From: Pseudomonadales bacterium
GTDB lineage: Bacteria > Pseudomonadota > Gammaproteobacteria > Pseudomonadales > Porticoccaceae
Length of the DNA: 13,678 nucleotides
NCBI GenBank assembly: GCA_020847115.1
Contig: JADLCO010000136.1
Location: 1 to 13,678, forward strand
Direction of reading: 5' to 3'
Position numbers and translations under genes: made by a program. Within the stretch, counting starts at the first letter, position 1, and the number at the start of each line of letters is the position of its first letter. The notes beneath the pieces were generated by a model. That model saw nothing but the letters and a program-made list of their open reading frames with translations, made no database searches and was not told the DNA's origin. Positions 4,479 through 5,322 of the stretch are shown here, in pieces.

Positions 4479-5322
4479 ATGGCGATGCCCGCCGATCTCG
4501 TCCAGACCGAGCCGGGGCTGGCGGTGCTGCGCATGGCGGCGCTGCTGGCCGAAGACGACGGCGCGCTCGACGAGGATCTGCTCGACGCCATGGCCGAGCA
4601 CACCGCGCGCGGTGCGCTGCACGCCACGCCGGCGGCGGCCATGTGGCCGGAATTGCGGCGGGGCCTCATGGCGCGCGCCGTCGCGCATGCTGGCGGCGCT
4701 GCGCCTGTCGGGCGCACTCGGCGCGGTGCTGCCGGAAGTCGCGGCGCTGTTCGGCGTGCCGCAGCTCGGCGCCGACCAGGCCGGCGTCGACATCGGCCTG
4801 CACACGCTGAACGCGCTGGCCGACGCCGCGCGCTGCGACGCGCCGCTCGAGGTGCGCTTTGCGCTCCTGGTGATGAACGTCGGCAAGTCCGACTCGCCGC
4901 CCGAGCACCTGCCGGTGCACTACCGCCACGTCGAGCGCGGCGGGCCGCGCATCGCGGCGATCTGCACGCGCCTCGGCGTGCCGGCAGCGTGTCGGGAGCT
5001 GGCGCTGCTCGCGCTCGGCGAATGCGAGCGCGTGCACCGCGTGTCCGAGGTCCGCGCGGGCCCGGTGGCGGCCATGCTCGAACGCCTGGGCGCCTTCGAT
5101 GCGCCAGAACGCTTCGCAGCCCTGATGCAGGTGTGCGCCTGCGACTACCGCGCCCACGGCGAGGGTTTCGGCCCGATCTATCCGAAGGCCGAGCTGCTGT
5201 ACACGGCGCTGCACGCCTGTCGGGGCGTGGCAGGCGACGCCGGTGATCTCGACGTGGCGCGCGCGCAGGCGATCGCCACGGCGTTTCGCTCGCAGCGCTG
5301 GTCGTCGGCCGGCCATGTCTGA
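4479..5322 (+). pseudogene. CCA-adding-enzyme (Cca) paralogue lacking the nucleotidyltransferase head, with a degenerate HD motif. The reading frame changes at the GCGCGCGC run 4671-4678
   Basis: In the frame of ATG 4479, EPGLAVLRMAALLA...HATPAAAMWPELRRGLMA is colinear with E. coli Cca DPLRVLRVARFAAR...HLTPERVWKETESALT. In the frame of ORF 4612..5322, LPEVAALFGVPQ...VDIGLHTL...VRFALLVMNVGK...PPE...LGVP matches FPEIDALFGVPA...IDTGIHTL...VRFATLCHDLGK...PPE...LRVP. The codon third-position GC signal switches frame at about 4670-4680. If the break is genuine, the product would be either a truncated protein or one starting at ATG 4687. Confidence 0.6.

What the first reader, a model, noticed from the sequence alone, without database searches (positions are those of the whole stretch)
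4479..5322. Head-less CCA-adding-enzyme paralogue with a degenerate HD motif inside a nif-linked redox gene string
The translation is colinear with residues from about 130 to about 370 of E. coli Cca (neck plus HD phosphohydrolase domain). It begins right at the DPLRVLR-equivalent (EPGLAVLR), so the whole nucleotidyltransferase head is absent. The metal-binding residues are also replaced. WHPEIDTGIHT becomes ADQAGVDIGLHT, CHDLGK becomes VMNVGK, and HHGHG becomes YRHVERG. The scaffold is therefore conserved but both catalytic activities are probably lost. Such a protein between a Rieske protein and a GST in a nif region has no obvious described role. Possibilities include RNA or nucleotide binding, regulation or scaffolding.
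Basis: partly seen in the sequence, partly recalled or inferred. Interest (0 to 1): 0.7.

Follow-up and report, generated by a model that had tools for sequence, protein, structure and literature searches.

The report
Frameshifted headless CCA-enzyme paralogue
This is a broken (2-base deletion) copy of a widespread but unstudied bacterial protein that descends from the tRNA CCA-adding enzyme. The protein has lost the polymerase half and the key metal-binding pair of the other half, and it usually sits next to a small iron-sulfur electron carrier, so databases that call it a "tRNA nucleotidyltransferase" are almost certainly wrong.

Summary
The conceptual 281-aa product aligns without gaps to E. 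coli Cca residues 136-377 (31% identity, E 2e-31). It has no polymerase head, and M-N replaces the HD dyad.

Residues 1-66 are in one frame and 68-281 in another. The cause is a 2-bp deletion in a (GC)n run at 4671-4678. Intact 281-aa orthologues (96% identity) carry (GC)5. Six independent assemblies of the same strain carry the deletion, so it is a real allele and a recent pseudogene.

The family is real: more than 640 clusters, 272-336 aa, in Alpha-, Beta- and Gammaproteobacteria. It is always headless. The dyad is M-[N/H] in 101 of 102 members, while H109, H148, H151, H187 and D223 plus about 20 family-specific polar residues are invariant. The proteins are acidic (pI about 5).

Nif linkage holds in this window but in only about 11 of 81 loci. 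The commonest neighbour is a Rieske ferredoxin, within 3 kb in 29 of 81 loci.

No literature on the family was found. Function is inferred only: a pseudo-HD ligand-binding or neofunctionalised protein that works with the Rieske ferredoxin. It is a new variant of a known kind and of moderate interest.

The parts
4479..4677 (+). 5' segment of the Cca-like gene. It runs from ATG 4479 through residues 1-66 (MAMPADLVQTEPGLAVLR...GLMAR) in the first reading frame. This frame then continues out of frame to a stop at 5246.
   Evidence: Searches give the translation. One search shows the segment is identical or near-identical to the N-termini of intact 281-aa orthologues (P0001, 96% identity).
4671..4678 (.). 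The frameshift site. The window has a (GC)4 run where its closest intact relative (L002) has (GC)5, so 2 bp are deleted.
   Evidence: One search aligns the window DNA with L002 and L001. Searches show the same (GC)4 allele in all six independent Logan assemblies of the same strain that cover the site (99.98-100% identical DNA).
4678..5322 (+). 3' segment of the Cca-like gene, residues 68-281 plus the stop codon, in the next reading frame. It holds the degenerate HD region: H109 at 4801-4803, M133-N134 (in place of the HD dyad) at 4873-4878, and D223 at 5143-5145. Gene callers call only a 211-aa ORF that starts at the internal ATG 4687.
4135..4473 (+). Rieske-type [2Fe-2S] ferredoxin, 112 aa, with CPH...CPHH motifs. 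Its stop codon lies 5 nt before the Cca-like ATG. It is the most frequent conserved neighbour of the family.
   Evidence: Pfam Rieske, E 1.1e-15; a Rieske gene lies within 3 kb in 29 of 81 loci, usually immediately upstream with a 4-38 nt gap. JGI names it 'toluene monooxygenase system ferredoxin subunit'.
5344..5976 (+). Glutathione S-transferase gene, 21 nt downstream of the Cca-like stop codon.
   Evidence: GST_N_2, GST_C_2. One search shows it immediately downstream only in the window's closest relatives (L002, L003, L006-L008).
77..6676 (+). A same-strand, tightly packed gene string that contains the target: fdxN (3' part), nifQ, truncated globin, SagB/nitroreductase-like, rhodanese, BolA, monothiol Grx4, Rieske, Cca-like pseudogene, GST, DUF6156, ApaG. 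It is probably one operon.
   Evidence: Intergenic gaps are 0-40 nt or the genes overlap.

Best explanation
What it is (shown). The locus is a recently inactivated allele of a conserved, uncharacterised family of head-less Cca paralogues.
- In intact relatives the gene encodes about 281 aa that correspond to the neck, HD-body and tail of the proteobacterial multifunctional CCA-adding/repair enzyme (E. coli Cca residues about 130-400).
- There is no Pol-beta head, so the protein cannot add CCA.
- The HD dyad (Cca H255-D256) is M-[N/H]. Cca H223 and H305 are also replaced. The canonical metal-dependent phosphoesterase chemistry of the Cca HD domain is therefore unlikely.
- In this strain a 2-bp deletion in a (GC)5 run shifts the frame after residue 66. 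The gene is a pseudogene here, or at best yields an N-terminally truncated 211-aa product.

How the intact protein most likely works (inferred, not shown).
- It is a pseudo-HD or neofunctionalised HD-fold protein. Its remodelled but strictly conserved pocket includes H109, K137, D139, E143, H144, H148, Y149, R150, H151, R154, E184, R185, H187, R188, D223, Y235 and K237.
- This pocket binds a small anionic, probably phosphate-bearing, ligand or a single metal ion.
- The protein acts together with the Rieske ferredoxin encoded directly upstream, as part of a redox-accessory module. That module is sometimes recruited into nif clusters.
For: Homology.
- Gapless BLASTP to E. coli Cca 136-377, E 2e-31. 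hhalign probability 99.7%.
- NF008137 scores 174-187 bits over model positions 136-404.
- AF2 model with pLDDT 91. Its best PDB matches are the bodies of class-II tRNA nucleotidyltransferases.

Family.
- More than 640 hits. The 102 aligned members are 272-336 aa.
- 140 genomic loci in Alpha-, Beta- and Gammaproteobacteria.
- dN/dS of 0.19-0.31.

Head and dyad.
- There is no PolyA_pol or HD Pfam hit, whereas E. coli Cca hits both.
- The dyad is M in 101 of 102 members and N (87), H (14) or D (1) at the second position.
- All headless proteins with a degenerate dyad (MN, MH, FN, VP, HK) form one clade in a neighbour-joining tree.
- The replacements HK, and the E-R pair next to the lost H305, put a positive side chain where a metal would sit.

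Constraint on the pocket: see the invariant residues.

Frameshift.
- Searches show it.
- It is reproduced in 6 of 6 independent assemblies that cover the site.
- The NCBI MAG gives consecutive protein accessions to the flanking Rieske and GST genes, so no protein was called between them.

Rieske partnership.
- A Rieske gene lies within 3 kb in 29 of 81 loci across three classes, with a 4-38 nt gap in many.
Against: - No experiment or publication bears on the function.
- Half of the loci (the Methylocystis group, M. capsulatus, Hyphomicrobium) have no Rieske neighbour.
- Retention of H109, H148, H151, H187 and D223 is also what a still-active metalloenzyme with an altered ligand set would show.
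- I could not inspect model coordinates. The claim that the invariant residues form one pocket rests on their alignment to HD-domain active-site positions.
- Persistence of the frameshift across samples shows the allele is real, but not that no functional product is made.
Confidence: 0.6

Rival explanations
1. The family is still an active phosphohydrolase or phosphodiesterase. It would use a non-canonical metal site built from H109, N/H134, H148, H151, E184, H187 and D223. It might act on a 2',3'-cyclic phosphate or a pterin/nucleotide phosphate substrate.
For: - Six Cca HD-pocket positions are invariant (D105, H109, H148, H151, H187, D223), and 14 of 102 members have His at the second dyad position.
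- The parental Cca HD domain is a 2',3'-cyclic phosphodiesterase (Yakunin et al. 2004, as cited in PMC6961547).
- Pterin genes lie nearby in Methylocystis, M. capsulatus and the P0124 locus.
Against: - Both dyad residues, which are the central metal ligands of all HD hydrolases, are replaced in 101 of 102 members by Met and mostly Asn.
- Related clade members carry FN, VP or HK at the dyad.
- The Pfam HD model does not match even at E<=1.
- The pterin linkage is seen in only three lineages.
Confidence: 0.2
2. It is a dedicated nitrogen-fixation accessory factor for nif-cluster redox or metallocluster maturation, as the window's context suggests.
For: - In the window it lies in one gene string with fdxN, nifQ, rhodanese, BolA and Grx4, next to fixABCX, nifW and nifV.
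- The same or a similar arrangement occurs in about 11 loci of Beta- and Gammaproteobacteria.
- From general knowledge, not tested here: most named host genera are diazotrophs (Methylococcus, Methylocystis, Methylocella, Xanthobacter, Sideroxydans, Ca. Macondimonas diazotrophica).
Against: - About 70 of 81 loci have no nif or fix gene within 10 kb.
- No sigma-54 or NifA-type motif lies upstream of stand-alone members, except in one Sideroxydans locus.
- This nif-carrying strain keeps a frameshifted copy across many samples, so the gene appears dispensable to it in the sampled environments.
Confidence: 0.15
3. It is a tRNA- or RNA-binding protein (decoy, chaperone or sensor of tRNA 3' ends) that uses the retained Cca neck, body and tail.
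For: - The neck/body region that contacts tRNA in class-II enzymes is retained. It gives a weak PolyA_pol_RNAbd hit (E 0.01) and structural matches to tRNA-bound CCA/A-adding enzymes.
- Many arginines are invariant.
Against: - The family is strongly acidic (median pI 5.1, net charge -12), whereas the E. coli Cca body has pI 7.9.
- The head and the templating Arg of the EDxxR motif are absent.
- No RNA-metabolism genes recur in the neighbourhood.
Confidence: 0.07
4. The frameshift is a sequencing or assembly artefact, and the gene is intact in the living organism.
For: - The source is a metagenome-assembled genome.
- The lesion lies in a GC dinucleotide repeat.
- The rest of the ORF is undamaged and 96% identical to an intact orthologue.
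Against: - The identical (GC)4 allele appears in 6 of 6 independent assemblies from different sequencing runs, in two accession series.
- A close relative with (GC)5 assembled without trouble.
Confidence: 0.08

Closest known systems
Multifunctional CCA-adding/repair enzyme Cca of Proteobacteria (E. coli b3056; NCBIfam NF008137; class-II tRNA nucleotidyltransferase with a C-terminal HD domain)
   Same: - Colinear, gapless homology to Cca residues 136-377 (31% identity to E. coli, 39% to a betaproteobacterial-type Cca, P0132).
- Same all-helical neck/body/HD fold.
- The equivalents of D227, H231, K259, H270, H273, H309 and D345 are retained.
   Different: - No Pol-beta head (residues 1-130 are absent).
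- The EDxxR nucleotide-template motif is degenerate.
- The HD dyad is M-N/H. H223 and H305 are replaced.
- The protein is acidic rather than neutral or basic.
- It scores 174-187 bits against a family cutoff of 451.
- It is encoded next to a Rieske ferredoxin rather than as a housekeeping gene.
Stand-alone head-less Cca-like proteins with an intact HD dyad (for example P0147, P0163, P0201, P0209; unnamed)
   Same: They also lack the head and start at the neck, are about 300-345 aa long, and are homologous throughout.
   Different: They keep H-D and match Pfam HD above its cutoff. They fall outside the degenerate-dyad clade in the neighbour-joining tree. They are presumably still phosphohydrolases.
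Degenerate HD domains used as non-catalytic modules (for example the HDOD domain). This comparison comes from general knowledge and was not tested here.
   Same: An HD fold whose metal-binding dyad has been lost while the domain stays conserved, which implies a binding or regulatory role.
   Different: No sequence relationship was tested. HDOD is a signalling-protein module, whereas this is a free-standing Cca derivative.
HD-fold mixed-valent di-iron oxygenases (PhnZ, TmpB, MIOX)
   Same: HD fold, with weak Foldseek hits to PhnZ and TmpB (E 0.6-1). They are redox enzymes, and the family's commonest neighbour is an electron-donating Rieske ferredoxin of the type that serves di-iron oxygenases.
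   Different: Those enzymes need the full H...HD...H...H...D ligand set. Here the bridging Asp and one His are gone. The structural similarity is marginal.

Membership tests
Cca, multifunctional CCA addition/repair protein (class-II tRNA nucleotidyltransferase) | N-terminal Pol-beta-type head domain (Pfam PF01743, catalytic motifs A-C) | tested here: not met
   - There is no PF01743 hit for the merged protein.
- All 102 aligned family members start at the neck.
- E. coli Cca hits PF01743 at residues 3-122.
Cca, multifunctional CCA addition/repair protein (class-II tRNA nucleotidyltransferase) | Whole-protein score at or above the curated cutoff of NCBIfam NF008137 (451 bits) | tested here: not met
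   Three intact family members (P0001, P0070, P0109) score 174-187 bits.
Cca, multifunctional CCA addition/repair protein (class-II tRNA nucleotidyltransferase) | Homologous neck/body region colinear with Cca | tested here: met
   - Model positions 136-398 of NF008137, E 4.8e-51.
- Gapless BLASTP, E 2e-31.
- hhalign probability 99.7%.
- Foldseek TM 0.59 to class-II enzymes.
Cca, multifunctional CCA addition/repair protein (class-II tRNA nucleotidyltransferase) | CCA-adding activity on tRNA | not testable with these tools
   This needs an enzyme assay. The absence of the catalytic head makes the activity implausible.
HD-domain metal-dependent phosphohydrolase superfamily (Pfam PF01966) | His-Asp dyad of the H...HD...D signature | tested here: not met
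   The dyad positions are M (101 of 102 members) and N/H/D (87/14/1). In the window they are M133-N134 at 4873-4878.
HD-domain metal-dependent phosphohydrolase superfamily (Pfam PF01966) | First His and last Asp of the signature | tested here: met
   H109 (Cca H231) and D223 (Cca D345) are invariant in all 102 members.
HD-domain metal-dependent phosphohydrolase superfamily (Pfam PF01966) | Match to the Pfam HD profile at or above its gathering score (22 bits) | tested here: not met
   There is no HD hit at E<=1. E. coli Cca scores 54 bits, and headless proteins with an intact HD dyad score 25-43 bits.
Head-less, dyad-degenerate Cca-like family (uncharacterised; database name 'tRNA nucleotidyltransferase' or 'hypothetical protein') | About 280-aa protein that starts at the neck, with the M-[N/H]VGK..DSP.EHLP.HYRH.ER and ECERVHR motifs | tested here: met
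   The conceptual (frame-repaired) product is 96% identical over 100% of its length to P0001 and carries all family invariants.
Head-less, dyad-degenerate Cca-like family (uncharacterised; database name 'tRNA nucleotidyltransferase' or 'hypothetical protein') | Intact open reading frame | tested here: not met
   A 2-bp deletion at 4671-4678 splits the gene between two frames. The deletion is reproduced in six assemblies.
nif-specific accessory genes | Conserved linkage to nif genes across the family | tested here: not met
   nif or fix genes lie within 10 kb in about 11 of 81 loci. There is none in M. capsulatus, Methylocapsa palsarum or the Methylocystis loci.

The most novel reading that the evidence does not exclude
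The head-less M-N family is a new kind of HD-fold redox or cofactor-handling protein. In this reading the remodelled pocket (His/Glu/Asp plus Cys220, 222 and 248) binds a metal or a pterin/phosphate cofactor intermediate, and it receives electrons from the co-encoded Rieske ferredoxin. An FAD amine-oxidase-like protein and a rhodanese-ankyrin protein would be further partners. This would be a previously unrecognised accessory pathway of aerobic diazotrophs, methanotrophs and lithotrophs, and it would have evolved from a tRNA-repair enzyme.
Probability: 0.1. Interest if true: 0.8.

Novelty: new variant of a known kind. Interest (0 to 1): 0.42.

Why it matters
- **Annotation.** Hundreds of proteins named 'tRNA nucleotidyltransferase (CCA-adding enzyme)' by JGI and NCBI lack the polymerase domain and the HD dyad, so they cannot be that enzyme.
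- **Evolution.** It is a clean example of a housekeeping RNA-repair enzyme giving rise to a conserved domain-loss paralogue clade with MN, MH, FN, VP or HK dyads. Its pocket is still under strong selection, so it may be a pseudo-enzyme or a neofunctionalised enzyme.
- **A testable partner.** The recurrent pairing with a Rieske ferredoxin, an FAD amine-oxidase-like protein and several unknown small proteins defines an uncharacterised gene module in environmentally important methanotrophs, sulfur and iron oxidisers and diazotrophs.
- **This genome.** The copy is a pseudogene, so it should not be counted as a functional nif-cluster component.

Tried and rejected
- **Single-sequence searches.** Pfam gave only PolyA_pol_RNAbd at 16 bits, below its cutoff. 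phmmer against PDB sequences found nothing. A family profile against PDB sequences gave only marginal hits to A. aeolicus-type enzymes (E 0.013). Homology had to be established through NCBIfam, BLASTP to E. coli Cca and hhalign.
- **Gene calling for the context survey.** The first two home-made gene callers (GC3 rules) picked antisense ORFs and were discarded. A codon log-odds caller was used instead.
- **sigma-54 / NifA-UAS scan.** A scan upstream of family members found nothing except in one Sideroxydans locus.
- **Literature.** Three searches found no paper on the family.
- **Plasmids.** A PLSDB protein search found only full-length Cca genes.
- **Mo and pterin linkage.** modABC lies nearby in 4 loci. 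Pterin genes lie nearby in three lineages. This is too sparse to build on.
- **Programmed frameshifting.** I considered and rejected it. Relatives are in frame, (GC)n is not a slippery site, and the shift is a plain 2-bp length difference.
- **Cysteines as an Fe-S site.** I considered this and down-weighted it. C220 also occurs in full-length Ccas, and C183 is not conserved in the wider clade.

Full report
**Observation**

The interval 4479-5322 is 844 nt, which is not a multiple of three. ORF listing and frame translations show two pieces.
- ATG 4479 opens a frame that reads MAMPADLVQTEPGLAVLR...RRGLMARA and then runs on as nonsense to a stop at 5246.
- The rest of the Cca-like sequence (PSRMLAALRLSGAL...RWSSAGHV, stop 5320-5322) lies in the next frame, inside ORF 4612-5322.

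DNA alignment with the two closest intact relatives shows the cause. After the ATG at 4668-4670 the window has (GC)4 (4671-4678), where the closest intact relative (L002) has (GC)5 (the other relative aligned, L001, is intact but reads GCGCGCGGGC at the site). That is a 2-bp deletion. Inserting GC restores a 281-aa ORF.

**Is the frameshift real?**

- The flanking Rieske and GST proteins are exact matches to consecutive accessions of an NCBI MAG (MCC6296474.1 and MCC6296475.1, 'Pseudomonadales bacterium'). No protein was therefore called between them.
- Nine Logan assemblies from different sequencing runs carry the same strain at 99.98-100% DNA identity.
- All six assemblies that cover the site have the same (GC)4 allele. 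Gene callers there report a 211-aa ORF that starts at the internal ATG (window 4687).
- A relative with (GC)5 assembled normally.

I conclude that the deletion is a fixed allele of this strain, so the copy is a recent pseudogene or at best a truncated product. It must be recent, because the remaining sequence is 96% identical to an intact orthologue and carries no further lesions.

**Homology**

- The repaired protein aligns without a single gap to E. coli K-12 Cca residues 136-377 (31% identity, E 2e-31). The family profile gives hhalign probability 99.7%.
- NCBIfam NF008137 (multifunctional CCA addition/repair protein) matches intact members over model positions 136-404 at 174-187 bits. The curated cutoff is 451.
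- Pfam finds neither PolyA_pol (head) nor HD. It finds only a sub-threshold PolyA_pol_RNAbd hit. E. coli Cca hits all three domains.
- An AlphaFold2 model built from 102 family members is confident (pLDDT 91, pTM 0.90) and all-helical.
- Its best PDB matches are the bodies of class-II tRNA nucleotidyltransferases (TM 0.59). HD-fold proteins (PhnZ, TmpB, HD-GYP) appear only marginally.

**The family**

The word-index search returned more than 640 proteins, and the best 120 are 244-349 aa long. JGI and NCBI name many of them 'tRNA nucleotidyltransferase'. A genome scan confirmed 140 loci; the 80 kept come from these groups:
- Alphaproteobacteria: Methylocystis, Methylosinus, Methylocella, Methylocapsa, Hyphomicrobium, Xanthobacter.
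- Betaproteobacteria: Thiobacillus, Sideroxydans, Sulfuriferula, Rhodocyclaceae.
- Gammaproteobacteria: Methylococcus, Methyloglobulus, Immundisolibacter.

Cluster members also include Ca. Macondimonas diazotrophica. dN/dS against relatives is 0.19-0.31.

Residue counts in 102 members, using the mapping family position i = E. coli position i+122:

| E. coli Cca | Family | Count |
|---|---|---|
| H255 (dyad) | M133 | M in 101 of 102 |
| D256 (dyad) | N134 | N 87, H 14, D 1 |
| H305 | C183 | C in 95 of 102 |
| D227, H231, K259, H270, H273, D345 | D105, H109, K137, H148, H151, D223 | invariant (K137 in 101 of 102) |
| H309 | H187 | 101 of 102 |

- The E. coli HPE histidine (H223) is also replaced. 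The window has Q and the family consensus has P.
- Family-specific invariants are D139, S140, E143, H144, Y149, R154, E182, R185, R188, C220, Y235, K237, C248 and R274.
- The exhaustive representative search shows a score continuum into full-length Ccas. The nearest is P0132 (419 aa, 39% identity).
- That search also reveals a wider set of headless relatives with other degenerate dyads: MH, FN, VP and HK. In a crude neighbour-joining tree they form one clade, apart from all HD-bearing sequences.
- Separately, some headless proteins keep an intact HD dyad and still match Pfam HD.

**Reading of the active site**

This part is inference. Two of the four canonical HD ligands, and two further conserved histidines, are gone. 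Some clade members put Lys at the Asp position. All members introduce an E-R pair next to the lost H305. This is the pattern seen when a side chain replaces a metal. At the same time the surrounding pocket is among the most conserved parts of the protein. The proteins are acidic (median pI 5.1, net charge -12, against pI 7.9 for the E. coli Cca body), which argues against general tRNA binding.

The most economical reading is a pseudo-HD or neofunctionalised pocket that binds a small anionic ligand or a single metal. Loss of CCA addition is certain in practice. Loss of hydrolase activity is likely but untested.

**Context**

In the window the gene sits in a tightly packed same-strand string: fdxN, nifQ, truncated globin, SagB-like, rhodanese, BolA, monothiol Grx4, Rieske, target, GST, DUF6156, ApaG. 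This string converges on DUF364, a ferredoxin-TPR fusion, fixXCBA, nifW and nifV.

Across 81 non-redundant loci:
- nif or fix genes lie within 10 kb in only about 11.
- The most frequent neighbour is a Rieske ferredoxin, within 3 kb in 29 loci. It is usually immediately upstream with a 4-38 nt gap, and this is seen in all three proteobacterial classes.
- A wider module recurs in Beta- and Gammaproteobacteria and partly in Alphaproteobacteria: u149, Rieske, an FAD amine-oxidase-like protein (525 aa), the target, u117, rhodanese-ankyrin, u137, u109. The small proteins have no Pfam or NCBIfam match.
- Methylocystis loci instead place the gene after a beta-RFAP-synthase-like gene, beside HPPK, DHPS-like and PCD genes.
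- M. capsulatus, Methylocapsa palsarum and an alphaproteobacterial MAG show unrelated neighbourhoods.
- No sigma-54 or NifA motif precedes stand-alone members, except in one Sideroxydans locus.

The nif association is therefore real for this lineage but is not a property of the family. The Rieske pairing is the better functional lead.

**Comparison with known families, and novelty**

It works like nothing that has been characterised. It is derived from Cca but fails the defining tests for Cca (head, family cutoff) and for HD hydrolases (dyad, Pfam profile). No publication on it was found. The parental HD domain's cyclic-phosphodiesterase role is documented (Yakunin et al. 2004, cited in PMC6961547).

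I rate it a new variant of a known kind. It is a conserved domain-loss paralogue family with a remodelled HD pocket, mis-annotated in public databases, and represented in this window by a frameshifted allele. Interest is moderate at 0.42. The family is worth an experiment. This particular copy is broken, and the mechanism is inferred only.

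Noticed in passing
L052, L064, L067, L069, L075, L079, L033, L062, L082, L013, L018, L035, L036, L040 (genes flanking the family member); also L096 6858-7217: Four or five small ORF families of unknown function recur around the Cca-like gene: u149 upstream of the Rieske gene, u117, u137 and u109 downstream, and c35/u119. None has a Pfam or NCBIfam match. c35/u119 also follows the distant 'VP' clade member P0124.
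   Followed up: partly
L001 7054-8229; L013, L033, L055, L065, L082 (between Rieske and target); L021, L031, L070: A 391-525-aa FAD amine-oxidase-like protein (Pfam Amino_oxidase plus NAD_binding_8, with a C-terminal helical extension) lies next to the family member in 16 loci, often between the Rieske gene and the target.
   Followed up: partly
Methylocystis loci L016-L076 (about 1-3.5 kb upstream of the target); L083 947-5331; L096 10214-11427: There is a weak pterin theme. In Methylocystis the target follows a beta-RFAP-synthase-like (GHMP) gene and lies beside HPPK, DHPS-like and pterin-4a-carbinolamine-dehydratase-like genes. M. capsulatus has GCHY-1, Pterin_bind and HPPK within 9 kb. The P0124 locus has Pterin_4a plus Biopterin_H 3.4 kb downstream. 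This could be coincidence.
   Followed up: partly
window 7044-7256 (-): A 70-aa cysteine-rich protein (CxGxxxxGxxCxG...CGxCGxxGC...C...CxxCG) is conserved in 7 loci near the nif/fix genes. It has no Pfam or NCBIfam hit.
   Followed up: partly
window 8072-8872 (-): A thioredoxin-like 2Fe-2S ferredoxin (NCBIfam fdxn_Azotob, E 1.4e-15) is fused to a TPR-like domain. In L013, L033, L062, L065 and L082 the two parts are separate adjacent genes downstream of fixX.
   Followed up: partly
window 921-1322 (+) and 1450-3093 (+): A truncated haemoglobin (Bac_globin, E 3.5e-37) and a 547-aa SagB/nitroreductase-like protein lie between nifQ and the rhodanese gene in the same gene string. These are unusual passengers in a nifQ operon.
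   Followed up: no
proteins P0147, P0163, P0201, P0209, P0211: Head-less Cca-like proteins with an intact HD dyad also exist (302-344 aa, and those scanned (P0147, P0163, P0201, P0209) match Pfam HD above its cutoff). Loss of the Cca head has therefore happened, or persisted, in more than one lineage. Some other short hits are probably gene fragments.
   Followed up: partly
L066, about 11 nt upstream of the called start of the target: In a Sideroxydans MAG a good sigma-54-type element (TGGCATTCAATTTGCA) sits just before the family member. It was the only such site among about 80 loci.
   Followed up: no
window 5973-6296 (+) and 6293-6676 (+): DUF6156 (E 1.6e-32) and ApaG/DUF525 (E 5.8e-36) genes overlap each other's stop and start codons, and the DUF6156 gene also overlaps the end of the GST gene. 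They close the gene string. Both are of unknown function.
   Followed up: no
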